Below, in pieces: positions 1,903-56,863 of a DNA stretch of 64,000 bases (its first letter is position 1; every line of letters starts with the position of its first letter). The DNA comes from Larinioides sclopetarius. Its lineage: Eukaryota. A program made the position numbers and the translations under genes. The stretch lies in contig CAXIEN010000093.1 of NCBI GenBank assembly GCA_964023285.1, positions 2,311,739-2,375,738 on the forward strand, in the 5' to 3' direction. The notes beneath the pieces are model-generated. The model worked only from the letters and a program-made list of their open reading frames with translations. It did no database searches and was not told the DNA's origin.

Positions 1903-3782
1903 TTTTGAGGCTGCTGTTAAAGCCTGATTTCCACACAATCTAACAAAGCCCAGGCTTTGGATCCCAAAATTTTCAAAGTTGTTGTGGTCAAAATTAACTT
2001 TGCTCCTTTTTTAATATTTTTATTTTCGTTTTTAACTCGAATGGCTGTGTTTTCTACATTGTTTATTTACATTATAATGCCGTACCTACGTTATTCCTGT
2101 GTAATGCTAGTCGAAAGTATTTCTGTATCAAATACTCCATATTATGTACTATACTCTCTTTATGTTATAATTTCTGTAACGTCTTTTCTTACACATTCTT
2201 TAAAACCATGTACGTTCAAAGGAAAGTCCTTCATTCAACTACTGTCAATATATATCGGAATACCTTCTACACTTAATTCTTGAGGCTGCTGTTAAAGCCT
2301 GATTTCCACACAAGCTAACAAAGCCCAGTCTTTGGATCCCAAAATTTTCAAAGTTGTTGTGGTCAAAATTAACTTTGCTCCTTTTTTAATATTTTTATTT
2401 TCGTTTTTAACTCGAATGGCTGTGTTTTCTACATTGTTTATTTACATTATAATGCCGTACCTACGTTATTCCTGTGTAATGCTAGTCGAAAGTATTTCTG
2501 TATCAAATACTCCATATTATGTACTATACTCTCTTTATGTTATAATTTCTGTAACGTCTTTTCTTACACATTCTTTAAAACCATGTACGTTCAAAGGAAA
2601 GTCCTTCATTCAACTACTGTCAATATATATCGGAATACCTTCTACACTTAATTCTTGAGGCTGCTGTTAAAGCCTGATTTCCACACAAGCTAACAAAGCC
2701 CAGTCTTTGGATCCCAAAATTTTCAAAGTTGTTGTGGTCAAAATTAACTTTGCTCCTTTTTTAATATTTTTATTTTCGTTTTTAACTCGAATGGCTGTGT
2801 TTTCTACATTGTTTATTTACATTATAATGCCGTACCTACGTTATTCCTGTGTAATGCTAGTCGAAAGTATTTCTGTATCAAATACTCCATATTATGTACT
2901 ATACTCTCTTTATGTTATAATTTCTGTAACGTCTTTTCTTACACATTCTTTAAAACTATGTACGTTCAAAGGAAAGTCCTTCATTCAACTACTGTCAATA
3001 TATATCGGAATACCTTCTACACTTAATTCTTGAGGCTGCTGTTAAAGCCTGATTTCCACACAAGCTAACAAAGCCCAGTCTTTGGATCCCAAAATTTTCA
3101 AAGTTGTTGTGGTCAAAATTAACTTTGCTCCTTTTTTAATATTTTTATTTTCGTTTTTAACTCGAATGGCTGTGTTTTCTACATTGTTTATTTACATTAT
3201 ATTGCCGTACCTACGTTATTCCTGTGTAATGCTAGTCGAAAGTATTTCTGTATCAAATACTCCATATTATGTACTATACTCTCTTTATGTTATAATTTCT
3301 GTAACGTCTTTTCTTACACATTCTTTAAAACCATGTACGTTCAAAGGAAAGTCCTTCATTCAACTACTGTCAATATATATCGGAATACCTTCTACACTTA
3401 ATTCTTGAGGCTGCTGTTAAAGCCTGATTTCCACACAAGCTAACAAAGCCCAGTCTTTGGATCCCAAAATTTTCAAAGTTGTTGTGGTCAAAATTAACTT
3501 TGCTCCTTTTTTAATATTTTTATTTTCGTTTTTAACTCGAATGGCTGTGTTTTCTACATTGTTTATGTACATTATAATGCCGTACCTACGTTATTCCTGT
3601 GTAATGCTAGTCGAAAGTATTGCTGTATCAAATACTCCATATTATGTACTATACTCTCTTTATGTTATAATTTCTGTAACGTCTTTTCTTACACATTCTT
3701 TAAAACCATGTACGCTCAAAGGAAAGTCCTTCATTCAACTACTGTCAATATATATCGGAATACCTCCTACACTTAATTCTTT
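1903..3782. repeat. Tandem satellite, 375-bp unit x 5.0 copies, more than 98% identical between units
   Basis: The ORF track shows an identical 108-codon ORF starting at 1957, 2332, 2707, 3082 and 3457 (period exactly 375). Junction motif cttaattcttgaggctgctgttaaagcctgatttccacaca recurs at each boundary. The array ends abruptly at ttaattctt|tatggggccc. Confidence 0.95.
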
Positions 3783-4320
3783 ATGGGGCCCTGAAAGCAT
3801 TCTGTGCTCTGGTTCCTGAGTGATGTAAATCGGGCCTTGGTTACTGCCCGTTGAAACCCGGTACACTCATCCGATTTTAATCGGAGGAAATTTAGCAGAA
3901 AAATGCCAGAGAAGCGACGAGTGACATGAAATATACTGACAGCAGTTGGATACTGCAAACAACCGTAGTCACGGGTCCGGTTCTGTTGCAGAAAAATGAC
4001 GAGCAGAATGGCTGCTAATGATCAACAACGAACTTCAAAACCCTTCGCTTTTTTGCGCATGCGTCTGGAGGAGTTATTTTCGTCAAAATGGAGGGAAAGT
4101 GGAAAACGGAAGGGGAGATTTTCGCATTGTACCGAGTGTGAGCTAACAAAGAATTCCGGAAAATAGCTCATATAACTCATTGCCGGCTTAAAATCGACCA
4201 AAAGTGCTATGTCTCGGAATCCGTTGCCTAGCTATAATTACTATTTAGCCCCCCCCCCAACACCCCGGAAAATATAAGCTCATCCAGCCGCTATTTATGA
4301 TTTCAAGCCACTAATCATTT

Positions 4321-5775
4321 ATCTGGCATTTTGCCGCTAATAACTTGTTTAGCTAAAATCGGATTTAACGCTGAATCTAAATCAGTTGTCATGCTTCAAA
4401 TAAATTTTCTAATGTTGGTGTGGCGAGTAGCTGGGCAGTTTATGGGAAATGAGACACAGATTCAAGTTTCGTCCTCCTCATCAGATCTGAGAACAAAACT
4501 GTTGTGTCCCTCGGAACGGGTCAGATATTTAACAAATCAAACTATCTGGTTTTTTACTTTCTCGTATAGAGAAAGTTTTGTAATCGTCGAAAAATTCGAA
4601 CTCGAGATTTTGACGAATCTCCACGTTTTACACCTCCCTGAATCCGAAAAACACAATTTTGGAATTATGTCTGTCTGTCTGTCTGTGAACACGATAACTC
4701 ATTCATCTATTATAACTACAATTCTGAAACTTGGTATGTGGTCTTTGTACATAAATTGTAAGATTCTATCGAATTTTGGGCAAAACCCGCCCTCGGGAAG
4801 TATATCTGTCTGTCTGTCCGTGTCCACGTGAACTCAATAACCCAAAACTGGATTAGCTACATAGATAAAATTTGGTACACAATTTCCTCATCTTTAATGT
4901 ATGCACATATAAAATTTTGGGCTAAATCCGTCAAATGCTTGACCGTCAGTCGGTCTGTATTAATCAAATATTTGTAAAATTTATATCTCTTAAATCCTTT
5001 AGCGGAGATATATAAAATTTAGTATGACGTATGCTATTAATAATTGTAGACCTATATAAAAGTTTCATCCCATTCGGTTTACTAGAAGTGTTTTAATTGC
5101 GAACCCCATTTTATAGATAACGCGCTGACCGCATTTATTTAAACTTCTGGCACGTCGTTTTGTGAGCTAAGGAAAGGGTAGAAAGTAGAACTTTCTAAGT
5201 TCTTTTTTATTTCATTTCGGCTCCCTTTTCCCCCTTTGGGCGAATTGTGATGGGGTTTGGATTATTTTAATTACTTGGAAATTAATGACGTTTCGGGTAT
5301 AGAGCAGATTCAAAACTTTTTATACGGTTTATAGTCTTTAGAGTCGGTGGAATTTTTTTTATCCACGCTGGAGGATGGGTATAGAGCAGATTCAAAACTT
5401 TTTATACGGTTTATAGTTTTTAGAGTCGGTGGAATTTTTTTATCCACGCTGGGGAGGATGGCAAACAGCTTAACTCTTGGGAACTATACGAGAACGTTTA
5501 GGGAAGGCCACTTCCACTGGTTTTATTACTGAATCGTTTCTCCGGCATTTTGCCGCTAATAACTTGTTTAGCTAAAATCGGATGTAACGCCGAACCTAAA
5601 TCAGTTGTCACGCTTCAAATTTTCTAATGTTGGTGTAACGAGTAGCGGGGCAGTTTATGGGAAATGAGACACAGATTCAAGTTTCGTCCTCCTCATCAGA
5701 TCTTAGAACAAAACTGTCGTGTCCCTCGGAACGGGTCAGATATTTATCAAATCAAACTATCTGGATTTTTTTTTT
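4321..5775. mobile_element. Composite repeat: about 980-bp internal segment flanked by about 235-bp direct terminal repeats (4321-4560 and 5543-5775). LTR/TRIM-like architecture, unclassified.
   Basis: Left repeat tctggcattttgccgctaataacttgtttagctaaaatcggat...caaactatctgg recurs at 5543-5775 with a few substitutions. The internal segment is a repeat family with a second, unflanked copy at 49803-50612. Confidence 0.6.
5285..5460. repeat. Internal tandem duplication (about 83 bp x 2) inside the composite repeat
   Basis: gtatagagcagattcaaaactttttatacggtttatagt(c/t)tttagagtcggtggaattttttt(t)atccacgctgg occurs twice back to back. The paralogous copy at about 50460-50560 has it once. Confidence 0.85.
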
Positions 5776-9300: not shown

Positions 9301-9436
9301 AGAAGAACAAAGGGAGGAGGGGGATATGTTTGAACTGTCTTTCTGTCGCAAGAACACCACTGAAACGGTGAATACTCTTGAAATGTAATTTGCACGTTCC
9401 AAGATTAATTCTACTTCTTCAAATTTTCAAAATACA

Positions 9437-10508
9437 TATATCTCTTCTATATAATTATATGATTGAAACCGAGTAATACTAAAAACAAAAAAAAATATTG
9501 AAAAATTTATGAAAAAATTGAAATAGCAGCGCCACCTGTCAAGCAATCTGTACAGAAATTTTAAGAACATTAATTTAAGTCAAGACAAAACTAAATATAA
9601 AATTTTATGAAATTTCTCCAATTAGTTTTTTATGTAGAGTGGATACAAAAAATAGTGAAAAACGGAATAGCAGCCTCACCTGCTGAGCGATCTATACCAA
9701 AATCTAATCAGCACCAATTTATGTTAAAATACAACTAAATATAAAATTTCTAAAGACGACTAAGTTATGGCGGAAGAGCCCAGTACCAGGGCTGGACAGG
9801 GTGATGACTTATAGTGATATATAATGATATTGTAACAGGACTACCTTCCGAGCGTGCCGCCTAGCGGACGTACCAAGAAAACATTAGTTGAAGCCTTGGA
9901 AGTCGTGAGTGAAATATGTTTTCCGCCCCGAGAACTCCGAACTGCAAACTCTATCCTTATGCGTTTGTCTTTAATTATTTGTAATGTTTGACCCCATGTA
10001 TCAAGTTCCTTTTTTTTTGGAATCGCGAAAACTTTCGACCTCCGTTTTTTGATGGATTTATGCGTTTTGAGGGGGGTCCTGAACACGATTTCACTATTTT
10101 TAGAAAATATATGTCTGTGCGTCTGTCTGTGTGCTGTGTGTTACACAAATTTTATGGGCGCGCTAGCGTAAAAACTACTTTACAGAATTTCATGAAATTT
10201 TATATTTAGTTGAATTTTAATATAAATTGGTGCTGAATGGATTTTGGCGTAGATCACTCAACAGGTGTCGCTGCTATTCCGTTTTTTTTCACGACTTTTT
10301 GTATCCACTTTACATCAAAAACTAATGGGGGAAATTTCATGAAATTTAATACTTAGTTTTTTCTTGACTTAAATTAATGTTCATGAAATTTTTGTGAAGA
10401 TCGCTTTACAGGTGGAGCTGCTATTTCAATTTTTTCATAAATTTTTCAATATTTGTTTTAGTATATCTCGGTTTCAATCATATAATTATATAGAAGAAAG
10501 TTTTGTGA
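9437..10508. mobile_element. Foldback-type element: about 310-bp inverted arms (9437-9750 and 10195-10508) around an about 445-bp spacer. Each arm is built of two about 145-bp tandem subunits.
   Basis: The reverse complement of 10195-10508 aligns at roughly 90% to 9437-9750 (for example attgaaatagcagcgccacctgtcaagc versus rc ...attgaaatagcagctccacctgtaaagc). The subunit motif aaatagcagc..cacctg...aaatataaaatttc appears twice per arm. Confidence 0.85.
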
Positions 10509-11598
10509 TGGCCACATCATACTAGTTGTATAATTAAATGTATTTGTTTCAAGCAAGCATCTTTTTTTTAACATCTTCTGTTTTCCCTAACACAAATGTA
10601 AGTTGGCTCACTTCTGATTAGTTAGTTTTATTGTCGGTTGCAATATGATCTTTAACTATTGTTAAAATTTTAGTGAACGAAATTTGCTCTGTTTGATATA
10701 TTTATCAACCTCTAGATCCCAAGCAGATTTTCACTTATCAGCAGTTTTTTCTTCAGTGAAATTTACTATATAAATTTTTCGCCACTAATGTTAATGTTTT
10801 CTTTCTTCAATTATAATATAATTTGTTTTTTCTTTTGCTGTTGAATTGCAAATTCTTAGTTTCATTCTAATATTGCCACTATTGTAATTCAGGTTTCTTT
10901 TTTTACATCTTGACTAAGAAAAAAATGAAAATGAACTTTCATTGTCTTTACAGAATTTATTGTTTTGAAAATTTTAATAGCTATCTTTTATTATACATAA
11001 TTGATATTTTTAACATTTTTCTTGAAACTATTTTTGGAAACCTACTTTCTACTTTAGAATTATTTCTTTTAGATTTCAAAATTGTATTATTCTTTCATTT
11101 GGTAATTGATAAGACGTTTAGATATTTGAGAACTTTCTCAACTGTTAATTTTTTGCTTTTCAGTTTAGCCTTGTAAGAACATTTAGCTCAATACAATTAA
11201 CACTAAAATATTTCATTTCGTAATCAAGGAGAGAAAACGGTAAGTTAAATTCACATGTATTTGAATTTTCATTAAATTTCAATTTTTAATCTTAACAAAC
11301 AATGAAGATAAGATTTTAAATATTTATGCATTCCGTGTCAATTATTTAAAAGTCTGAATTTTCCTGTCGAGCAAGTTTGTCTGCGAAGGTGGTTATTTAG
11401 AAATATATTAAAATTATAATCAGAAGCTACCATAAGCGGAATAAAGTTTTTACAAAGAAAGCTTGTAGATATGGCTGATCAACAGGTTCATGGATAATAC
11501 AAAGCTCATCCAGATAGTAAGTATACCGTTTGAGTATTGAAAATATAAGCAATTGTTTTTATTTGTATTCTATTACAAAATAATCTACACACCTTAAA

Positions 11599-12010
11599 CT
11601 ACTTTTCGACAAACTCACCATGCGAGTTAAGGCATGTCTCATGTCTAAGCACTAAATGCAACATACTCGCTTCGTAGAGTTCTACTGCATGGGACCTTAA
11701 CCAGTCTTGGTCGTTTATCTTAATCTTATCGTCACCTACAAATTGCTGGACGGTAAGAGATTTCCTGATATGAGAAAACAAAGGGAGGTCGGATCGTAAA
11801 ATGTTTTAAAATTCATTCACAAAGCAGAAATCGTGAATAGGCAATTGGAACAAAAGTTTTTTCGTTGATGCAGCGTACCAATTCTTCGATGATCATTGTG
11901 CTCCTCGTCTTGTGTGGACATTTTCTCTTCCTTCGCTAAACATCCTAACCCTCTTTCCTACCAGACCTTCACTCATCGAGTTCTCGCCTTAAGTTCCACT
12001 TATCCAAAGA
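11599..12010 (-). pseudogene. Degenerate mariner-like transposase C-terminal remnant
   Basis: Minus-strand ORF 11599-11781 ends ...ETCLNSHGEFVEK*, resembling the C-terminal ...W.KCI.S.GEYFE* of mariner transposases. Upstream in minus orientation there is RKKKYSILW, compare PKKVMLSVWW. Similarity is weak and other frames are broken. Confidence 0.3.
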
Positions 12011-12949
12011 TAAATTTCACAAGATCGAATATTTCTTCTTTCTTTCACATATCACAGCTGGTAGGACGCTAGATTATTTTAAACATGATTACAAATAAAA
12101 TCTTACTGCTGTCAGATAGGGATGTATAATCCACGATATTTTTAATAACTAATATTTCTGCTATTATTATTTTTAAATATTTAATCTAAATAAGTGTGAT
12201 TTTAATCACACTTTTAACTTTCAAATTCTTATTAAAAGTATAAAAAGCTTATTGAAGAAATTTTAAATAAAAATAATCTATTTGTTTTATTACATTTTAT
12301 GAAAAATTGTATGTTTTTAGTTCTATATATTGTCGATAGATGGCGCTTTGTAGCGAAAACTACTTAAAAAATTCCGAGTAATTGAGATCACCACAAATAT
12401 TTCCATCAATCGCAGAAGCTGACTTCAACACAGTTCACCATTCCGAATTCCTTTGCAGTGAATCGCAATTTCGATCATTTTAAGTGACGACGCAGTTTAT
12501 GGATTGATTGCGAAGAGCTGGAGCAATTTATAATGAATCATACTTCATCATTTTCCGTTCCGAATCAGATGCGCAAATGGTACTTATTTTCTGGTTGAGC
12601 TTAGTAGATATTAAGCCAATTATTTAAGTGTTGACTGAAACAAAATGTTGTGTAAGCACAGTTTATTTTTTTTATAATTTTCTCCGGAATCCAGCACCTT
12701 TTAAAATAACTTTACTCTCAGTTTGGCTTTGAAAAAATAAAAAATAACAATGTGCTCCTTTTACACCCAGCAAAAAATTAATTAAAATTGTATTTATATT
12801 TTACTTTTCCAACAATATGTAGATTAGAGTTGTTAAATTTATTATATTTTTAAGAATATCATTTTTATTAAATCTCTTTAATAAATCAGGTTTTAAAGAG
12901 GAATGAAAATTAACGAAAATGTGTTACGCAAGGGGAGGGCGCAGCTTGG

Positions 12950-13095: not shown

Positions 13096-15540
13096 TACGA
13101 CCCTGCTAGAGTGCCTTTATAAAGACACTCTAGGCACATCATTTTCCGGTAATCATAAAAAGTCAAAAGGAAACTACAAAAATTCTAACATTCTGTTTGA
13201 AGATAGTAATTAATGTTAAATGTGATTTTTTTAATGTTATCCCTTAAGATTTCTTTGAGAATATTTAATTTAATTTTGCTATCGTTGTAGCTTTTTTTTT
13301 CTTCTTAAGATAAAAACCTAAATGCTGAGGGATGTTGATGCAATTATTCTTATCGCTCATTTTACCTACGCCGACCGAAAAATTTCTTTAGTTGCTAAAT
13401 TTTTAAACATGTAATTCTAAAATTACCAACGGTTAAATATTTAACCAAACGATTTAGCTTATTCTAATAGTTTGAATTTAAATACTTTAGAGGCTTTTCT
13501 TAACCGATTTAAAAAAAAGAAAATGTACAAACTCAAAGTTTTGTTTACTAAAGAAAGACCGATACAAACTTGGCGCTTGATTCCATTTCCAAATGGCTTT
13601 GGCGATTGCTTGAATCGGAAGGTTACCAAAAAACGGTCTAGAGAGGTTCAGAATTTAAACAATTTTGGAAACTTGTCCATAAACGAGGATATATTTTTTT
13701 TCTTTTCTATGTTCTTCAGCTCTTCTGAAGTTATCAAATTGGTATGGTAGTATAGTGACTGGAAGAAGGCTTCTTCTAGCACTATAATGGTAGTAAGAGC
13801 CTGAATCTATTAATGGACCTTATGCGTGTGATGTCAAATACGCCGACATGTGACATTTTGGGCTGTAGTCATTGATCAGTTTTTACAGCTAATAGGCAAA
13901 CTCTGAGCATCATTGGCTGTTCACTGTCAGCTGTTATTTCATACCCACCTATTGCAATAGGTCCATTGTAATTCTTATATAAAACTTTGCACAATTCAAC
14001 AAAATTTTATTGAAAAATGCTTTAATGCTACATAAAGAATTCCAAATTTTTAAAATCCATTACATTTTGCTTAATCATTCCTATGATTTGGAGTAAGACA
14101 AAGCATTTAAACCGTAATATCCTCGTGTCTTTGTTACTAGATTGATCGGAAATCTACCGATTCCTGGAGTGTTTTTGATGTCATGGTATTATAAAATAAA
14201 TAAACTGACGTCTTTTATTATTATCCTATTCATAAAAGTCGAACAAGCTGAATCATTTTTATTGTCCACTAGAGTAAATCCGGAAGCATAGTGCATGGGC
14301 GGTGCTTCCATCTGTTTGTTTTCGATTACAGTCAAGTGATGCAATCCGAAGGATCTTGCCGGTGTGTTTTGATTATTTAAAACAAGACGAAAGCGGACGA
14401 AGTTCAGCTGGTATGTAATTAAATTAATCGTTGAATTATTATTTGTAGAAACTTGTATAGAATCTGCAAAAGATTTTATAAAAATATTATTGAATCTTAT
14501 ATTACTTAATTATAAAATTGTTTCCACAATATCTTATCAAAATTTATCGGTTAAAGAGAATTTTTTTTGCATCTGGATTTTATTTCTTTCGTCCTTTTTC
14601 AGAAAATCATTGGAATTAATCAATAAAAAATGTAGTCGACTTTTTAAACCTTAATTGAAAACTCCGATCAGTTCAGCGATATTTCGAATATGTATGTCAA
14701 AATGTTAATAATGTCTATATCATAGTGTCAACTAAACAAAAGTACACGGTACAGTGCCAAACTTGTAGCCTTTTTTGGCTATAAATTGTCTAATGTGTTA
14801 TCCCAATTACAATATATTTATGTTGTGTTTGGCGAGTTTTCCATCTGTCTATTCTTTCAAAGAATTTGAAAAGAAATATTTAAGATTTATTTTTAGCTGG
14901 GATGCATAAAATCTGTGTTCTAATGCAATTTTTCCAAAGAAATGTAGGTATCAAAATTTCCTTAAAGAGAATCTTTGCATATTTCTTCTCTATCTTATTA
15001 AGAGTATCTTATTCAATATTTTAAATGGTGTGCTTTGTATATCCACATTATTTTTATATTATTAAAGGCCTCTGGTTGTGTATATATATGTTGTACAATA
15101 CATTTCTGAATTTATTCTATGTTTTAAGCATTTTACAATATTGTAGACTATTTCGTTCTATTTCAGACTCTTTTTATCTCGGTTGTGCTTGATTTTCAGA
15201 ATTTCAATAATGTAGTGTAAAAAATATTTCCTCATTAACTATTCAGATTAATTTATGTTTATTCCAAAGCATCTATCTATGAAGTTTTAAGTATAATTTT
15301 TGTTTGAAAAGTGTAAATCCATTTGATGGCATTTTGAAATTTTCAAAGGTTCAATTTTCAGTTTAAAATTCTTAGAATTGCAATTATCTAAAGTGTATTT
15401 TTAAAAATAATATTCCACATCAGCTGTTCTGAACCTTTTGGGTTGTGTGGACCACGAGCCATCCAAAATATGTAAACAATATTTTGAATCCTACTATAAG
15501 TAAGTGCACAAATAAAAATTACACTCATTTATATATACAT

Positions 15541-16741
15541 TAAGACGCCGAATATCCATCGTTCGTTGGATTTTTTGGATAGTTTAGGTTATTGACTTAA
15601 TTTACGAAGAAAATGCATTTAGCTATTGACTAAGCAATAAATATGAAAATTAATGTAAAAAATTATATGTTACAATTTTAAAACATTTATTATTTTTTTC
15701 GTATAATTTAATTCTTGTTGAATTTCAATCAAAAGCATGGAATTTACTATGGGACATACATAATATTGACGCCATTTTAACATCTATAGATATTTTCTGG
15801 CTGCCTAATTGAATAAATTATACCAAATGTTAAAAAGGGTTGAATGCAGCTTCGCTTAGTGACCGCAAACCTCCATCTAAATAGGGCCAATCATCACTGT
15901 GCTTTTAAGCTGCCACTGCTTTAAGGATGCCCAAGAATAGTTCATGGTAGTTTAGGAGATACAGCTGAGATATACGGCGCCCAAGGCGACTTGGTGAGAT
16001 TTGGTTTGATTGGCGACTTTTCGCGTTTGCGTCTATCACGCGTTTTAAAACGCAATCCGCCATTTTGACGATCGGAAGTTCGAGCTTTCCATTTCTGGGC
16101 AATAAAGAAACTAGTTGCCTAACAGTTAATTTAAAAGCGAAGCCGGCGATGTTTTTTTAAGTTAAAAAAATTTGCCCGGAACGCATAGAACTTAATGTAT
16201 ACGTTAAGAACTTTTCTTCATAAGAAACTAAACGTACCCGCCATCTTGAATAACGATTACAACTCGCCAAGCCGCTATGTTTGTTTACATTGAAAAGTCG
16301 CCAAATCGTCTTGGGCGCCGTATATCCCAGCTGTTCCGTTTAGGAATGCAAAATTAGATAATTCTTAGAAATTTGAAAATACAGTCATATCTTACAGAAA
16401 TCATGATTTTTAGTAAATATTTAAAGTAAAATCACTTGCAAGTGTTAAGTAATTTCACTTGTAAAAGTATTTATTTTGTAACTAAAAAGAAAATGAATAC
16501 AGTCGAAATTTAAGCATGATGGAATATTGAAAAACGCTTCTCAAGATTAATTTTCTGGTGCCAACATTTGTGATTTGTGCCTAGCAGCCTATTCTCTACT
16601 TTCTACTTAAGATGGAACAGAATATATCAGCCAAAAAAATTTTTTAATGAAAACAAAATGTAGACAAAATAAATTTTTGGTAAAATTAACGGTCAAAACT
16701 GTCTGGTTTTTAGGAGTCCAGATTTATTGGTGTCATTCTGT
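15541..16741. mobile_element. Non-autonomous Tc1/mariner-type element, family M copy 1 (about 840 bp plus a 362-bp nested insertion). Its termini are more diverged than in copies 2 and 3.
   Basis: Collinear with 34614-35438 and 55841-56863. Shared internal blocks include ttattgacttaatttac.aagaaaatgcatttagct, ccactgcttaaaagg..cccaagaa and ttggtgaaattaacggt.aaaa.tgt.cagtttttt.gagtc.gg.tta. Confidence 0.8.
15967..16328. mobile_element. Nested MITE (362 bp) with 28-bp terminal inverted repeats inserted into family-M copy 1. Target-site duplication CAGCTG (or AGCT).
   Basis: Left end gagatatacggcgcccaaggcgacttgg. Reverse complement of the right end gggatatacggcgcccaagacgatttgg (26/28 match). Flanks ...atacagctg|[insert]|cagctgttcc. 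Paralogous copies at 35.07 kb and 56.53 kb read straight through (ggtagttttagagtttaaaattag), so they act as empty sites. Confidence 0.85.
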
Positions 16742-16862
16742 CTCTCTCTCTCTATATATATACACACATACTTGTCAGTGATTAGTACAGCTTGCTGTAA
16801 AAGGATTTAAAAGCTAGAAAAAAGTGAAAACTCTTGTAGCTTTAATGATTTCAATTTTTTGA

Positions 16863-17677
16863 CTAGAGGTCTGAAGGGTAAAAGTTCAGATAACGGTGCC
16901 ACTTTATTTCTACGAAAGTGGTCGCTAATTTATTGTCGCCAATAGGGCGATAGCTTTGCGACGGTGGAATGCGATGGTAGAATTTGTTTCGTTTCTCGCG
17001 CGAAAGTTCCGCTGATTTTTTGTTTGTTTGTTTTTTTCTTCTCTCTTCTGGAACGCAATTATTTCTATAACATGATGAATTTTTTTTCCCGCTGCGCACG
17101 CAATGCCTGCGGCATTGCAAACGTGTACCGGGCAATTATTTTAACTAAAAAAAAACTTCAGCGGCTTCGCTTTCAGCATAGCAGGCAAATCGTAGCTTCG
17201 CTAATAAAGTGAACGTATGGAATCCTTCGCTTTTTTTTAAAATTCATTTTCAGATAGTTACTGGAGAACCTGTTAGTTGATGGTAAGTTTAGGAAATTAA
17301 AAATACTAATTATGAATTGAAACAATAACGTTTCATTCACCTTTTCTGCTTTAGCGAAACAAAATCAGCTATTTACTGGCGAAAATAAAAAACCAGAATT
17401 CTGAAAAGCAAACGATATTGTTTTAAAATGAAAATTCTAAGAACTCGACCAACCAGAATACATCTTAAAGTCACATGATAATTGAAATGCAATCAACGAA
17501 CGCGAAACAGAATTCCAAGTCTTGTTGCGCAAACTGGACACAATTTAAGACATTTCTGCACATACCAAACAATTATTACACGTCGCCAATCTATCCTATT
17601 CTTGGCGTCAAAGAATCGTCTTGTTTATAGGTTAGAAGTAGCCGCGCACCGTTATCTGAACTTTAACCGTCTGAAGC
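16863..17677. repeat. About 815-bp segment bounded by 33-bp inverted repeats. The interior contains a palindrome (gcaatgcctgcggcattgc) and a possible 5-prime exon with GTAAGT donor at 17255.
   Basis: 16863 ggtctgaagggtaaaagttcagataacggtgcc. Reverse complement of 17643-17677 is gcttcagacggttaaagttcagataacggtgcgcc. Confidence 0.5.
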
Positions 17678-25859: not shown

Positions 25860-26401
25860 GTAAAAATTTTTTGTGTTTAAATTTCTTTAAATTAATATTT
25901 ATTATTATATGCATTTAATAAACCTATTAGCCAATTTTTATTGTTAAAGGGATATAGGTAAATTGTTCCAGACACATTTCATAAGCATAAGAAACATACT
26001 TCTAATATTAATTGAAAAATTCAAAAAAATTTATTGCAATCTTAGAGGTCCTTGTTATTATTTTTATTAATTAGTTTTATTACAAAATGACATAAGTTTC
26101 ACTACTCAATCTTGTAACCTGCAAAAACTGTGTTATTTTATATTTTGTACCTATCTGTTTTTTATATGAGTGGATTTTATCTTTTTTTTTCATTAAAAAC
26201 ACGTCACTTGGAATTTGATAAATTAGAGATGAAACTAATACTGAGATATATGTTTTTATATATATATATATTTTAAATCTGAATTGTTTTCTTTTAGTTT
26301 TTTTATATTGTGCACTAGATTGGTTATAAAATTTAGAGAACTAATGCCTATTATTTTTTAATGCATTTGAAGTATTAGATACTGAATAATACCCAACAAA
26401 G

Positions 26402-27905
26402 TACACTCATGTCCATAAATTAAGGATAATTCAGAATCACACAGAAATTGAACTCTAAAATAAAAATTTCACCTGTAGAATTATCACACACATCTTGAAG
26501 AATATGCAAATTACAGGAAACCACCAGATGGCGCGGATAGTTCCTCACAATGACGAGAATGTAAGAGAGGGGTATATAAGGAATGGTGGCAAAGAAGTAA
26601 AATTGTTCACAAGCGCTTTAAAAGCCTTTCAGTGCAATAACCGCATAGTTATGGCACAAAGGAAGCATTTGGATGATTTTTTATGTGGTAGAATTATCGG
26701 AAGACTGGAATGTGGATGTACCCAGCTGGAAGTATCCGAGGAACTTGGAATCGCCCAGAGAGTCATCTCCAGGCTTTGGCAACGATTCCAAGATAATGGT
26801 AATGTGAGTAGATGTTACAGCACAGGTCGCCCCTGAGTTACAACGCCGAATGAGGACCCGTATTTGGCAGTTACTGCCAAAAGAAACAGGCGGAGCACAG
26901 CATCAGACCTGTCTCGTCAGCTCTCTTCAGCTACCGGTACGACAGTTTCAAGGCAGACCGTGTACAGATGCTTAGGGCACATTGGTCTATATGCTCGTAG
27001 GCCTGTCAGATGTGTTCCACTTACCACAACTCACTGTCGGCTGCGATTAGCCTGGAGTAGAGAGCATGCATTGTGGACACCGCAACAGTGGTCTTGTGTG
27101 ATGTTTTACGACGAGTCCAGGTTTAGTTTGCAGTCTGATTCTCACCGGACTTTCATATGAAGAGTGCCAGGTACCCGTTACCACCAAAAGAACGCCATTG
27201 AACGACACTGTTACGGTGGTGCAGGATGGCTCGTTTGGGGAGGAATTATTCTTGGTTCCAGAACTGACCTGCATGTTCAGAGTGTAACGATGACAGGCCA
27301 CATCTATCGGGATGTCATTCTGGAACAACATGTAGGTTTGTGTAGGGGCGCCATGGGTGCTGAATTTCTGTTTATTGATGACAACGGCCGTCCTCACCAT
27401 GCAAACATTGTAGACGAATGCCTTCAATCAGAGGATATCACCCGTATGGATGGGCCAGCATACTCACCAGACTTGAATCCAATAGAGCATGTGTGGGATA
27501 TGCTTGGCCGACGAATTGCAGCCCGTCAACTCCCTCCCACGTTATTACCGGAACTTCGGAGGGCATTGCTTGATGAGTGGTGTAATATTCCCCAAGATCA
27601 GATTGATAATTTGATACTCAGCATGCCTAGGCGTTGTAAGGCCTGTATTGCATTGTCTGGGAGACACTCTGTATTAACCATCATACTAACCATGTTATAC
27701 TGTTTTTTGTAAATAGGTTCTTTTTAGAAATTTGCTCCAGGGAGTAAAAATCGCAATTTTTATTAATAGTGTTAAACATATAGCATCTTTTTTGCTCTTT
27801 ACCTTTTGTTTAATAAATAGACTTTACAAATAAGTCAAATTTGTTTTGCTTCTGTCTCTTTCTTTGCCTGAACTTCATTATCCTTAATTTATGGACATGA
27901 GTGTA
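26402..27905 (+). mobile_element. Tc1-like (Tc1/mariner superfamily, DD34E) transposon, 1504 bp, perfect 29-bp terminal inverted repeats, TA target
   Basis: Left TACACTCATGTCCATAAATTAAGGATAAT (26402-26430). Right ATTATCCTTAATTTATGGACATGAGTGTA (27877-27905) is the exact reverse complement. The internal ORF carries the Tc1 signatures WS.VMFYDESRF, FIDDNGRPHHA and YSPDLNPIEHVWD (D..D..34..E). Confidence 0.95.
26495..27715 (+). pseudogene. Tc1-like transposase gene interrupted by two in-frame stop codons (TGA at 26837 and TGA at 27161). No frameshifts.
   Basis: ORFs 26495-26836, 26864-27160 and 27164-27712 are all in the same frame (start mod 3 = 2). Concatenated they give an about 405-aa transposase with an HTH-like N-terminus (RLWQRFQDNGNVSR) and a DDE domain. 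Confidence 0.9.
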
Positions 27906-28639
27906 CATAAAGATATTACCTTCTTTTGTATTTAATCTTTAGTAAACGTTTGGTGCAGTTGAGCAAAATGTGTACAGTCATCACCAATTAGTTGTTTTTG
28001 CATTGTTGTGCTTTCTAAATAAAATTAATGAAATATTTCTATTTTATACACATTTATAATAAAGAGGTGAAAGTAAGTTGTCACTGGTTAATCCTCTTTT
28101 GAGACTAGTTTTGAAAAATACTAAATTATTGAGATAGGAACTTAATCAAGATGCCGAGGATCAGATTATCCAAACATCTAATCAATTGAAAACAATTTTC
28201 CGATTCTTTCTTTCTGTTGTGTTTATTGAAATATTGAGGTTTCCACAATACATATGTTATAACCAATGCAGAACAAAATTGAGAATTTAAAACAGTTTTT
28301 ACCTTTCATAACATTCTAGTCAAAATTCTATTAAAGAAATTCTTTAGTGGCTGAACTTGATTAATTCTTTGTTAATTAAGTAATTGTTCTGATTTTTATT
28401 AATATTGTTACGGACATGGAAAGTTGCTTCCTAGCGGCGTCACTCTCCTCACTGGAAAGAGAGTTCTACAGGAGTATGTATGGGAATGTGCTTGAATAAA
28501 TGAAGCCATTGACCATCTGAGCTTGGCGACCATATGGCCATTTATCGCCAGGTTTGGAGAGTTTAGTGACAAAAACTAGGTTCTCAAATCTGCTAAAATT
28601 TTCTGCATAACTCCATTAGAAGAGGAGATATAGAACTTC

Positions 28640-34613: not shown

Positions 34614-35438
34614 CAGTATAAAGCCGGTTATCCGAAGTCAACTGGACCACAACGATTCCTGATTTTTGGGTGACTAAATTTATGAAGAAAATGTATTTTG
34701 CTGTTGATTTACCGATAAATACGATAATTTACATAAAAAAGATATTATATTAAAATTTTAAAACATTTATTTTTTCGGTATAATTTTATTATAGAATGAG
34801 TAAAGAAGAGAGCAAAACACACGTGTCCCGATTACTGTTCAATATTGCACCCTATATCTCATGAAGTATTGACATACACAATATTGACAAAATATAAATA
34901 TATTAAATATAAATAATTTTCAACATGGAATAAATTATTTCAAATGTTACGAAGGGCTGGGTGCAATTTCGTTTACCAGTGCCGCTAACGACACCGCAAA
35001 CCTCCATGTCAAAAGTGCAATCATTGCCTTGTGTTTAAGTGGCCACTGCTTAAAAGGTCCCCAAGAAAAATAGTTCTCGGTAGTTTTAGAGTTTAAAATT
35101 AGAAAATTCTTAGAAATTTGAAAATGAACTCAGATTTTACAGAAGTTGTGATTTTTGTGTATATATTTAAAGTAAAATCACTTGCAAGTCAAGTAATATC
35201 ACTTGTAAAAGGTATTTATTTTGTAACTTAAGCAATTGAATACAGCCGAAACATAAACATGATGGAATATTGGAAAATGCCTCTCAAGGTTAGATTTCTG
35301 GCTGTGATTCGTTCCTATCAGCCTTTTCTCCACTGCCAACTTAAGTTGGAAATTTTTTTTAGACGAAATAAACTTTTGGTGAAATTAACGGTTAAAAATG
35401 TTCAGTTTTTTGGAGTCTGGATTATCGGCGTCATACTG
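34614..35438. mobile_element. Non-autonomous Tc1/mariner-type element, family M copy 2 (825 bp)
   Basis: Termini CAGTATAAAGCCGGTTATCCGAAG ... CGGATAATCGGCGTCATACTG (inverted, CAGT ends as in Tc1). Collinear with copies 1 and 3. Confidence 0.8.
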
Positions 35439-49802: not shown

Positions 49803-50612
49803 CTTTATCATATAGAGAAAGTATTGTAATCGTCAAAAAAATTCAAACTTGAGATTTTGATGAATCTCCACGTATTAGACCTCCCCGAGTCCAATAAACA
49901 GAATTTTGGAATTATGTCTGTCTAGGAACATGATAACTCAAAAACTATTATAGCTACGAGGCTGGAATTTTGGTGTGTGGTCTTTTTTTACATGATTTGT
50001 AAGATTCTCAAAGTTTTGGGCAAAATCCACCCACAGGAAGTATGTCTGTCCACGTTCATGTGAAATCAAAAACTTGAATAGCTAGATTGATAAAATTTGG
50101 TACACAGTTTTCTCATCATAAATGTATGTCAATATAAAACTTTCTGCCAACTCCGTCAAGGGTTTGACTGTCAATGTCTAGATATATAAAATTTAGTATG
50201 ACGTATGCTAATATAAATTGTAAACTTGTGTAAAAATCTCACCCCAATCGATTGCATAGAAAGGGTTTAATTCTTTATCCAAATTCCTAAGATGCAGGCA
50301 TGCGCAAAGCGTCGTTTTGTGAGCAAAAGAAAATGTTGCATAAGGATTGCTAGTGGGGAACTTTCTAGTTGCTTTTTTCTTCCATTTTGGATCCTTTTTC
50401 TCCCTTTTGGTGATTTCTGATAGTGGTTGGATTATTTTAATTATGTGGAAATTAATGGTGTTTCGGGTATAGAGTAGATTCAGAATTTTTATCCAGTTCA
50501 TATTTTTTACAGTTGGTGAAATTTTTTTATCCACACTGGTGGATAGGAAACGACACAATTCTGGGGAAATATACGAGAAAGTTTAGGGAAGGCCACTTCG
50601 TCTGGTTTATAA
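49803..50612. mobile_element. Second, diverged copy (about 80-85% identity) of the internal segment of the 4321-5775 composite repeat. It lacks the 235-bp flanking direct repeats.
   Basis: Collinear blocks: tatagagaaagt.ttgtaatcgtc.aaaaattc.aact.gagattttga.gaatctccacgt, aatttggtacaca.tt.ctcatc, aaatttagtatgacgtatgcta, tggattattttaatta.ttggaaattaatg..gtttcgggtatagag, agggaaggccacttc. Confidence 0.85.
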
Positions 50613-55840: not shown

Positions 55841-56863
55841 CAGTACAACGCCGATAATCGGGAACGCGACAATTCCGAATTATCTGATTTTCTGAATTTT
55901 TTGGTTATTGACTTAATTTTACTAAGAAAATGCATTTAGCTGTTGAATAATCGATAAATTACATAAAATATGTATTGCTATTTTAAAGCATTTATTATTT
56001 TTTTCCTGACAATTTTATTATTCACAGAAGAAGTAAAAAATAGAGTAAAAATAAACGTATTCCGATTGCCGGCCGAAATTGGAACATAAATCTTGAATGA
56101 GAGAGGTGTGGGATTTTTAATAACCATGGCCATTATCCCCTAGTCCCATGTTAGGCACAATAAAGTTCGTTCTAAAAAAAGAATTCCTTAAAATTGATTA
56201 TAAAAAGCACCAAGGAGAACGAGAACAAAGTAAGCGTTCGAATCTGCTGGACTGACAATGAAAATAAAAAGCAACAAACCAGGCTTTTGGAACGCTGGTT
56301 GCCAAAAGGATGCATTTAAGAAATATCAAAATACTTGAGGGCTTGAATGAAAGGTGATCAGATGTTTCTTATTGTTTAAGACAAGATAAAAGGGTAGGTA
56401 GTAATGTTGGGAATAATTATATTTAATTTGGACCACACACAGAGAATATTTCTGAAGGATATGTAATGCTCGGGTTCCCTTCAAGCGGCCACTGCTTGAA
56501 GGATGCCCAAGAAAAGTAGTTATGGGTAGTTTTGGAATTTAAAAGTAGAAAATTATTAGAACTTCAAAAATAAGTACTTATTTTACATAAATCGTGACTT
56601 TTGAGTATGTATAAAATATATTTATTTTGTAACCAAAGCGAATGAATACGGCCGGAACATAAAATATTGGGAAAACGTTCCTCAAGATTAGATTTCTGCC
56701 GCCGGCGTCTATGATTCGTTCCTCGCAGCCCTTTATCCACTGCCAACTTGAGATGGTAAATTTTTTAGAAGAAAAAAAATGTAGACGAAATAAAATTTTG
56801 GTTAAATTTTTAATGGCTAAAAATGTCCGGTTTTTTGAAGTCCGAATTATCGGCGTCATACTG
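55841..56863. mobile_element. Non-autonomous Tc1/mariner-type element, family M copy 3 (1023 bp)
   Basis: Termini CAGTACAACGCCGATAATCGGGAAC ... GTCCGAATTATCGGCGTCATACTG. Reverse complement of the right end is CAGTATGACGCCGATAATTCGGAC, giving an about 22-bp TIR. Confidence 0.85.

What the first reader, a model, noticed from the sequence alone, without database searches (positions are those of the whole stretch)
15541..16741. Nested transposition captured with empty sites: a 362-bp MITE with 28-bp TIRs inserted into one of three paralogous copies of a Tc1/mariner-type non-autonomous element
The insert 15967-16328 has near-perfect 28-bp inverted termini (gagatatacggcgcccaaggcgacttgg and, at the other end, the reverse complement gggatatacggcgcccaagacgatttgg). 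It is flanked by CAGCTG on both sides.

The homologous positions in family-M copies at 35.07 kb and 56.53 kb are uninterrupted. This gives a clean filled-site versus empty-site comparison and defines both the MITE and its target duplication.

The GC-rich TIR is unlike the host element's CAGTA... termini, so this is a different DNA transposon family.
Basis: seen in the sequence. Interest (0 to 1): 0.55.

Follow-up and report, generated by a model that had tools for sequence, protein, structure and literature searches.

The report
Merlin MITE nested in Tc1/mariner MITE

Summary
The insert is real, and it is absent from the two paralogous copies of the host element. Its ends were misplaced. Only one reconstruction aligns without gaps to both empty sites: removing 15958-16345. 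This makes the element 15958-16337 (380 bp), flanked by a perfect 8-bp target-site duplication GTTTAGGA. CAGCTG is its own reverse complement and lies inside the 37-nt terminal inverted repeats; it is not the duplication.

The window comes from an araneid spider. A second, related element (16877-17668, 8-bp duplication GTCTGAAG) lies about 540 bp downstream.

Both elements match Merlin transposons that carry a DDE_Tnp_IS1595 transposase, fetched from Araneus ventricosus, Argiope bruennichi and Trichonephila clavipes:
- GG termini (one end of the insert reads GA).
- 8-bp duplications.
- An ACGG box at nucleotides 17-20 from each end.
- CGCCAA-type subterminal repeats.
- A shared internal module, 92-93% identical to the 3' non-coding region of the Araneus elements.

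The downstream element aligns end to end with one such Merlin. The window has no Merlin transposase, so both are MITEs mobilised in trans.

Verdict: a nested insertion of a Merlin MITE into a Tc1/mariner-like MITE. It is a new member of a known kind and of low interest. The insert's own family, copy number and exact autonomous partner could not be retrieved.

The parts
15538..16740 (+). Host element M1. A non-autonomous Tc1/mariner-like element, about 815 bp without the insert. Ends are CATTAAGACGCCG...GGTGTCATTCTG (decayed from the consensus CAGTAnAACGCCGATTATCCG...CGGCGTCATACTG). TA lies on the left flank.
   Evidence: Alignment of the three copies; end coordinates and flanks.
15950..15957 (.). 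Left copy of the 8-bp target-site duplication GTTTAGGA.
   Evidence: It corresponds to GTTTTAGA in M2 and GTTTTGGA in M3.
15958..16337 (+). E1, the inserted Merlin-type MITE. 380 bp, 42% G+C against 31% for the window, with no long ORF. The + strand has the sense of the transposase strand of related Merlin elements.
15958..15994 (+). 5' terminal inverted repeat GATACAGCTGAGATATACGGCGCCCAAGGCGACTTGG. ACGG sits at nucleotides 17-20. It contains the palindrome CAGCTG.
16301..16337 (-). 3' terminal inverted repeat, read as the reverse complement: GGAACAGCTGGGATATACGGCGCCCAAGACGATTTGG. It matches the 5' TIR at 32/37 positions and starts with GG.
16134..16183 (+). Internal module AAAGCGAAGCCGGCGATGTTTTTTTAAGTTAAAAAAATTTGCCCGGAACG. 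It is shared with E2 and with the 3' non-coding region of autonomous spider Merlin elements (92-93% identity).
16338..16345 (.). Right copy of the 8-bp target-site duplication GTTTAGGA.
35083..35090 (.). Paralogous empty site in host copy M2 (34614-35438): GTTTTAGA, uninterrupted.
56529..56536 (.). Paralogous empty site in host copy M3 (55841-56863): GTTTTGGA, uninterrupted.
16877..17668 (-). E2, a second, related Merlin MITE of 792 bp. Termini are GGTAAAAGTTCAGATAACGGTGC and GGTTAAAGTTCAGATAACGGTGC. It is flanked by a perfect 8-bp duplication GTCTGAAG (16869-16876 and 17669-17676). It aligns end to end with the Araneus ventricosus Merlin in L063.

Best explanation
E1 (15958-16337) is a non-autonomous deletion derivative (MITE) of a Merlin-superfamily DNA transposon. 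A Merlin (IS1595-like DDE) transposase encoded elsewhere in the spider genome bound its 37-nt terminal inverted repeats and CGCCAA/TTGGCGA subterminal repeats. It excised the element and integrated it by a staggered 8-bp cut into GTTTAGGA, inside an already resident and already diverging Tc1/mariner-like MITE (M1). Gap repair produced the 8-bp duplication.

Shown: the insertion, its boundaries, the 8-bp duplication, and the sequence relationship to transposase-bearing Merlin elements. Inferred: trans-mobilisation by a Merlin transposase and the cut-and-paste chemistry, from what is established for DDE transposons. The element is probably an inert relic now.
For: 1. Boundaries. Only removal of 15958-16345 restores a gapless alignment to both empty sites. 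The flanking 8-mers are identical.

2. A neighbouring element, E2, has the same design: a perfect 8-bp TSD and GG at both ends. It shares with E1 the TIR core AGATA(T)ACGGYGC, the subterminal motifs and about 75 nt of interior.

3. The host is an araneid spider. Merlin is abundant in Araneus ventricosus, with 112 sequences (PMC8101967).

4. Six spider Merlin elements carrying a PF12762 DDE_Tnp_IS1595 gene all have GG termini and 8-bp TSDs, five perfect and one 7/8. These are L062, L063, L064, L065, L066 and L069, fetched and tabulated.

5. ACGG sits at nucleotides 17-20 from the terminus in all eight ends of E1, E2, L063 and L065. The E1 TIR matches the L063 TIR at 15/26 ungapped positions (background 7.7 +/- 2.1; 0.2% of GG-starting 26-mers reach 15). 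E2 matches at 18-20/26.

6. E2 aligns end to end with the L063 Merlin: both ends plus 120 nt of the 3' non-coding region at 82.5%. E1 16134-16183 is 92% identical to nucleotides 1352-1400 of that element.

7. Every other copy of that module in 238 kb of spider DNA lies in a Merlin element or a Merlin deletion derivative. One is an approximately 800-bp MITE with TSD ACTTTTTG.

8. Published Merlin hallmarks are TIRs of 24-462 bp, terminal GG and an 8-9 bp TSD (PMC8101967).
Against: - No second copy of the E1 family itself was found. Only one insertion defines its ends.
- Its 5' end reads GA, not GG.
- Its TIR is only about 58% identical to the nearest transposase-bearing Merlin TIR found. Outside the 50-nt module its interior has no detectable match to those elements.
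- The autonomous elements come from other spider species, not the source genome. The window holds no Merlin transposase.
- Two Araneus copies of one Merlin family (L059, L060) show no TSD.
Confidence: 0.86

Rival explanations
1. One reading: a 362-bp MITE (15967-16328) of an unidentified family with 28-bp TIRs, which duplicated CAGCTG (4-6 bp) on insertion.
For: CAGCTG does occur directly outside the strongest part of the inverted repeat on both sides.
Against: - CAGCTG is palindromic, so it is equally an extension of the TIR (42-nt arms).
- This model leaves 22-26 nt (GATA...TTCC plus a second GTTTAGGA) unaccounted for against both empty sites.
- It would put the ACGG box at nucleotides 8-11 instead of the 17-20 seen in related Merlin ends.
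Confidence: 0.03
2. An 8-bp-TSD MITE of another superfamily (hAT, P, Mutator-like, Zisupton), with the Merlin resemblance coincidental or due to a captured fragment.
For: - An 8-bp TSD is also typical of hAT and P elements (general knowledge).
- The E1 TIR is only moderately similar to known Merlin ends.
- The shared module could in principle have been acquired secondarily.
Against: - The termini are GG/GA, not the CAG/TAG (YARNG) of hAT or the CATG of P.
- The in-register ACGG box, the CGCCAA subterminal repeats and the module all point to Merlin.
- The sister element E2 aligns end to end with a transposase-bearing Merlin.
Confidence: 0.08
3. No insertion: copy 1 keeps an ancestral segment that was deleted in the lineage leading to copies 2 and 3.
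For: Copies 2 and 3 are paralogues, so a shared deleted master copy is formally possible. Other indels do distinguish the three copies.
Against: - The extra segment is bounded exactly by 37-nt inverted repeats and by an 8-bp direct repeat of host sequence that is present once in the other copies.
- It has a different base composition.
- It is related to Merlin elements of other spiders.
Confidence: 0.01

Closest known systems
Merlin / IS1016 (IS1595-like) superfamily of eukaryotic DNA transposons and their MITEs (Feschotte 2004; survey in PMC8101967)
   Same: - 8-bp target-site duplication.
- Terminal GG.
- TIRs in the 24-462 bp range, imperfect, with asymmetry at nucleotides 3-5.
- E1's internal module and E2's 3' non-coding block match spider Merlin elements that encode DDE_Tnp_IS1595.
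   Different: - No transposase (non-autonomous).
- The E1 5' terminus is GA.
- The specific TIR sequence (GGAACAGCTGGGATATACGGCGCCC) was not found in any fetched autonomous element or in any other copy.
Araneus ventricosus Merlin in BGPR01000118.1 (locus L063 9723-11297; transposase P0136, PF12762)
   Same: - E2 aligns with it end to end.
- TIR identity is 18-20/26 for E2 and 15/26 for E1.
- ACGG at nucleotides 17-20.
- The 3' non-coding module is 82-92% identical.
- 8-bp TSD.
   Different: It comes from a different species. It is 1575 bp with a 316-aa transposase gene. E1 and E2 lack the coding part and differ in most of the remaining interior.
hAT-superfamily MITEs
   Same: 8-bp duplication, short TIRs, subterminal repeats.
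   Different: hAT ends start with YARNG (CAG/TAG). E1 and E2 start with GG/GA and are homologous to Merlin elements.
Tc1/mariner-derived MITEs (the host element, family M)
   Same: Family M has CAGTA...TACTG ends of about 25 nt, TA at 4 of 6 flanks and no coding capacity.
   Different: E1 has unrelated G+C-rich ends and an 8-bp rather than a TA duplication. The Tc1 copy in the window (26401-27906) has different TIRs, so it is not M's evident partner.

Membership tests
Merlin superfamily (as a non-autonomous member) | 8-bp or 9-bp target-site duplication | tested here: met
   GTTTAGGA lies on both sides of E1 and is validated by two empty sites. GTCTGAAG flanks E2.
Merlin superfamily (as a non-autonomous member) | Termini begin with 5'-GG | tested here: inconclusive
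   The E1 3' end is GG and the 5' end is GA, one substitution away. Both E2 ends are GG, as are all 14 ends of the seven fetched transposase-bearing elements.
Merlin superfamily (as a non-autonomous member) | TIRs of 24-462 bp | tested here: met
   37 nt with 32/37 matching. The range is taken from PMC8101967.
Merlin superfamily (as a non-autonomous member) | Ends or interior homologous to an element that encodes a DDE_Tnp_IS1595 (PF12762) transposase | tested here: met
   - E2 aligns end to end with the L063 Merlin.
- The E1 module is 92% identical to nucleotides 1352-1400 of that element.
- TIR similarity is in register, 15/26 against a background of 7.7.
The match is to elements of other species, and for E1 it is limited to the TIR layout plus 50 nt.
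Merlin superfamily (as a non-autonomous member) | Own DDE_Tnp_IS1595 transposase gene (autonomous members only) | tested here: not met
   tblastn of three spider Merlin transposases against the window found nothing with E below 0.3. This is expected for a MITE. It means the element is filed as non-autonomous, and its actual partner is unidentified.
hAT superfamily | 8-bp TSD together with YARNG (CAG/TAG) termini | tested here: not met
   The TSD length fits. The termini are GATAC/GGAAC. Taking CAGCTG as the end gives non-matching flanking 8-mers, AGGAGATA against TTCCGTTT.
Tc1/mariner (host element M) | TA target duplication and CAGT-type TIRs | tested here: met
   CAGTAnAAnGCCG... and ...CGGCGTCATACTG ends. 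TA lies at 4 of 6 flanks, and the other two are one substitution away. No transposase and no autonomous partner was identified.

The most novel reading that the evidence does not exclude
The roughly 45-nt partly palindromic module AGCGAAGCCGCTGATGTTTTTTTAAGTTAAAAAAATTTGCCCGG, kept in E1 as almost its only recognisable interior, may be a cis-acting element. It could be needed for Merlin transposition or expression, for example as a transposase or host-factor binding site or a terminator/hairpin.

It is about 90% identical between Merlin lineages whose transposases share only 54% amino-acid identity and whose TIRs are unrelated. It is tandemly amplified in one element.

If this is right, spider Merlin MITEs would offer a natural minimal-element series for defining what a Merlin transposon needs in cis. 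That is essentially unknown, because no Merlin element has been studied biochemically.
Probability: 0.15. Interest if true: 0.35.

Novelty: new member of a known kind. Interest (0 to 1): 0.15.

Why it matters
Mostly for annotation. It gives exact ends, the duplication length and the superfamily for two unannotated MITEs in an araneid spider genome. It also shows that Merlin-derived MITEs accompany the known abundance of Merlin transposases in orb-weaving spiders.

It is also a worked example of a common trap. A palindromic hexamer inside a TIR can pass for a target duplication, and only the empty-site alignment resolves it.

Nothing here changes how transposition is understood.

Tried and rejected
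- Exact scans of metagenome contigs and genome contigs with the 17-nt TIR core gave 58 loci. All were 17-23-nt chance matches in bacterial sequence, including a 46-bp tandem repeat in L016. No relative of E1 was found there.
- Rfam at gathering thresholds and ARAGORN found nothing in the window, so the insert is not a known RNA gene.
E1 and E2 have only short ORFs.
- BLAST of E1, E2 and family M against 238 kb of fetched spider DNA found only the shared Merlin module. It found no E1-family or M-family copy. The source species is therefore probably none of A. ventricosus, A. bruennichi or T. clavipes, and copy number could not be estimated.
- I considered a 5-bp TSD (GTTTA) with GGA-initial ends, and a 9-bp TSD with one mismatch. 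The 8-bp reading is the one in register with E2 and with all autonomous elements.
- I considered that the shared module might be an independent repeat unrelated to Merlin. This was rejected because every copy found lies inside a Merlin element or a Merlin deletion derivative.
- The third large protein search, with a translated E1 ORF to fish for other copies, was not run. Its chance of success was low and the conclusion did not depend on it.

Full report
**What is in the sequence.**
The window is 30.8% G+C, with no tRNA or Rfam match. A frameshifted Tc1 transposase at 26495-27712 is about 90% identical to Tc1 transposases of Araneus ventricosus and Trichonephila clavipes. The window therefore comes from an araneid (orb-weaving) spider genome.

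The region named in the finding belongs to a repeat present three times: M1 at 15538-16740, M2 at 34614-35438 and M3 at 55841-56863. The copies are about 80% identical. Their ends are CAGTAnAAnGCCGATTATCCG...CGGCGTCATACTG, and TA lies at four of the six flanks. This fits a non-autonomous Tc1/mariner-like element. The Tc1 copy in the window has different TIRs.

**Checking the observation.**
- The 28-nt inverted termini are there (25/28). Their 17-nt core occurs exactly twice, once on each strand, against about 0.03 matches expected by chance.
- The segment is absent from M2 and M3.
Arms of 42 nt span 15961-16002 and 16293-16334. They include CAGCTG, which is its own reverse complement and so cannot be told from TIR sequence by inspection.

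I reconstructed the pre-insertion site under three models and aligned each to M2 and M3.
- Removing 15958-16345 gives a gapless alignment across the junction with both copies.

The element is therefore 15958-16337 (380 bp). The duplicated target is the octamer GTTTAGGA at 15950-15957 and 16338-16345. It corresponds to GTTTTAGA in M2 (35083-35090) and GTTTTGGA in M3 (56529-56536). The termini are GATACAGCTGAGATATACGGCGCCCAAGGCGACTTGG and, on the other strand, GGAACAGCTGGGATATACGGCGCCCAAGACGATTTGG (32/37). Subterminal TTGGCGAC/GTCGCCAA motifs follow.

**A sister element next door.**
About 540 bp downstream lies a second element, E2 (16877-17668, 792 bp).
- Its termini are GGTAAAAGTTCAGATAACGGTGC and GGTTAAAGTTCAGATAACGGTGC.
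- It has a perfect 8-bp duplication, GTCTGAAG.
- With E1 it shares the TIR core AGATA(T)ACGGYGC. That pattern matches three of the four E1/E2 ends and nothing else in the window; the E1 3' end differs at its first base.
- It also shares the GTCGCCAA motif and about 75 nt of interior, in opposite orientation.

**Which superfamily.**
An 8-bp duplication with GG termini is the published signature of Merlin: TIRs of 24-462 bp, terminal GG and an 8-9 bp TSD (PMC8101967). That paper reports 112 Merlin-related proteins in A. ventricosus.

I took one of its listed spider transposases, GBO46257.1. It has no match in the window. I used it to retrieve spider homologues and then the DNA around eleven of them.

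Six elements carrying a PF12762 DDE_Tnp_IS1595 gene could be delimited. All start and end with GG and have 8-bp duplications:

| Locus | Coordinates | Species | Duplication |
|---|---|---|---|
| L063 | 9723-11297 | A. ventricosus | GTACTAGT / GTACTGGT |
| L064 | 9345-12782 | A. ventricosus | CCGCCATG |
| L065 | 9762-11314 | A. bruennichi | ACACAATC |
| L066 | 9639-11262 | T. clavipes | GATTTTTC |
| L062 | 9763-11316 | T. clavipes | GTAAACTT |
| L069 | 9527-11406 | A. ventricosus | CCCGTTCT |

All of them have CGCCAA-type subterminal repeats.

**Direct links to E1 and E2.**
- Counted from the terminus, ACGG occupies nucleotides 17-20 in all eight ends of E1, E2, L063 and L065. This independently supports the E1 boundaries derived from the empty sites.
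- Ungapped identity over the first 26 nt is 18-20 for E2 against L063 and 15 for E1 against L063. The background is 7.7 +/- 2.1, and only 0.2% of GG-starting 26-mers in the window reach 15.
- The reverse complement of E2 aligns end to end with the L063 Merlin: nucleotides 1-78 with 1-78, 457-576 with 1313-1431 (82.5%), and 758-792 with 1541-1575. It behaves as an internal-deletion relative.
- E1 16134-16183 is 92% identical to nucleotides 1352-1400 of that element, in the 3' non-coding region.
- The same module lies downstream of the transposase in L068 (A. bruennichi). It is tandemly repeated in the 3' part of the L064 element.
- Every other copy found lies in a Merlin deletion derivative. 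One is an approximately 800-bp MITE at L064 15538-16336 with a perfect 8-bp duplication, ACTTTTTG.

**Mechanism.**
Shown: an insertion bounded by 37-nt TIRs, a perfect 8-bp duplication of host-element sequence, no coding capacity, and sequence kinship with transposase-bearing Merlin elements.

Inferred from general knowledge of DDE cut-and-paste transposons: a Merlin transposase made elsewhere in the genome recognised the TIRs and subterminal repeats, excised E1 and inserted it through an 8-bp staggered cut. Repair then created the duplication.

The insertion came after M1 arrived. The intact duplication contrasts with about 20% divergence among M copies. Some of the TIR mismatches (nucleotides 2-3) may be built-in asymmetry, because autonomous Merlins also differ between their two ends at nucleotides 3-5.

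**Limits.**
- No other copy of the E1 family was found, either in the window or in the bacterial, metagenome and spider DNA that could be searched.
- Copy number, family consensus and the true autonomous partner therefore remain unknown.
- One E1 end reads GA.
- The comparison elements come from other species.
- Two 99%-identical A. ventricosus Merlin copies (L059, L060) lack a recognisable duplication, which I cannot explain.

**Comparison and novelty.**
This is a typical nested TE arrangement. The element is a new, unannotated member of a known kind, a Merlin MITE in a spider. The boundary, TIR length and TSD do not.

One mildly interesting by-product is the 45-nt module. It is about 90% identical between Merlin lineages whose transposases are only 54% identical. 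That suggests either a cis-acting function or exchange between families.

Noticed in passing
window 16877-17668 (TSD 16869-16876 and 17669-17676): A second Merlin-type MITE (E2, 792 bp) with a perfect 8-bp duplication GTCTGAAG lies about 540 bp downstream of the insert. It aligns end to end with an Araneus ventricosus Merlin element.
   Followed up: yes
window 16134-16183 and 17103-17202; L063 11042-11150; L064 11154-12400; L068 10939-11007: A partly palindromic module of about 45 nt (AGCGAAGCCGCTGATGTTTTTTTAAGTTAAAAAAATTTGCCCGG) is about 90% conserved in the 3' non-coding part of Merlin lineages whose transposases share only 54% identity and whose TIRs differ. In L064 it is tandemly amplified. 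Its function is unknown.
   Followed up: partly
L059 9724-11379 and L060 4741-6386 (Araneus ventricosus): Two 99%-identical copies of a 1656-bp Merlin element with GG termini have no recognisable target-site duplication. A related copy of the same TIR family (L069) has a perfect 8-bp one.
   Followed up: partly
window 26401-27906: A Tc1-like transposon with perfect 30-bp TIRs (GTACACTCATGTCCATAAATTAAGGATAAT). Its transposase is broken into three ORFs (26495-27712) and is about 90% identical to Araneus and Trichonephila Tc1 transposases. Its TIRs differ from those of family M.
   Followed up: partly
window 1957-3819: About five tandem copies of a 375-bp unit, seen as five near-identical 108-120-aa ORFs spaced 375 bp apart. 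This is probably a satellite or minisatellite, not a gene.
   Followed up: no
window about 56090-56420 (within M3): Host copy M3 carries roughly 200-300 bp that M1 and M2 lack at the same alignment position. I did not determine whether this is another nested insertion or a deletion in the other copies.
   Followed up: no
window 16741-16775: A compound microsatellite (TC)n(TA)n(CA)n directly abuts the 3' end of M1 and replaces the expected TA flank.
   Followed up: no
window 4580-4678 and 49814-49950: A short repeat shared with A. ventricosus (L064 4054-4189, 82-92%) and A. bruennichi (L065 17703-17819). It is the only other cross-species repeat hit found and was not identified.
   Followed up: no
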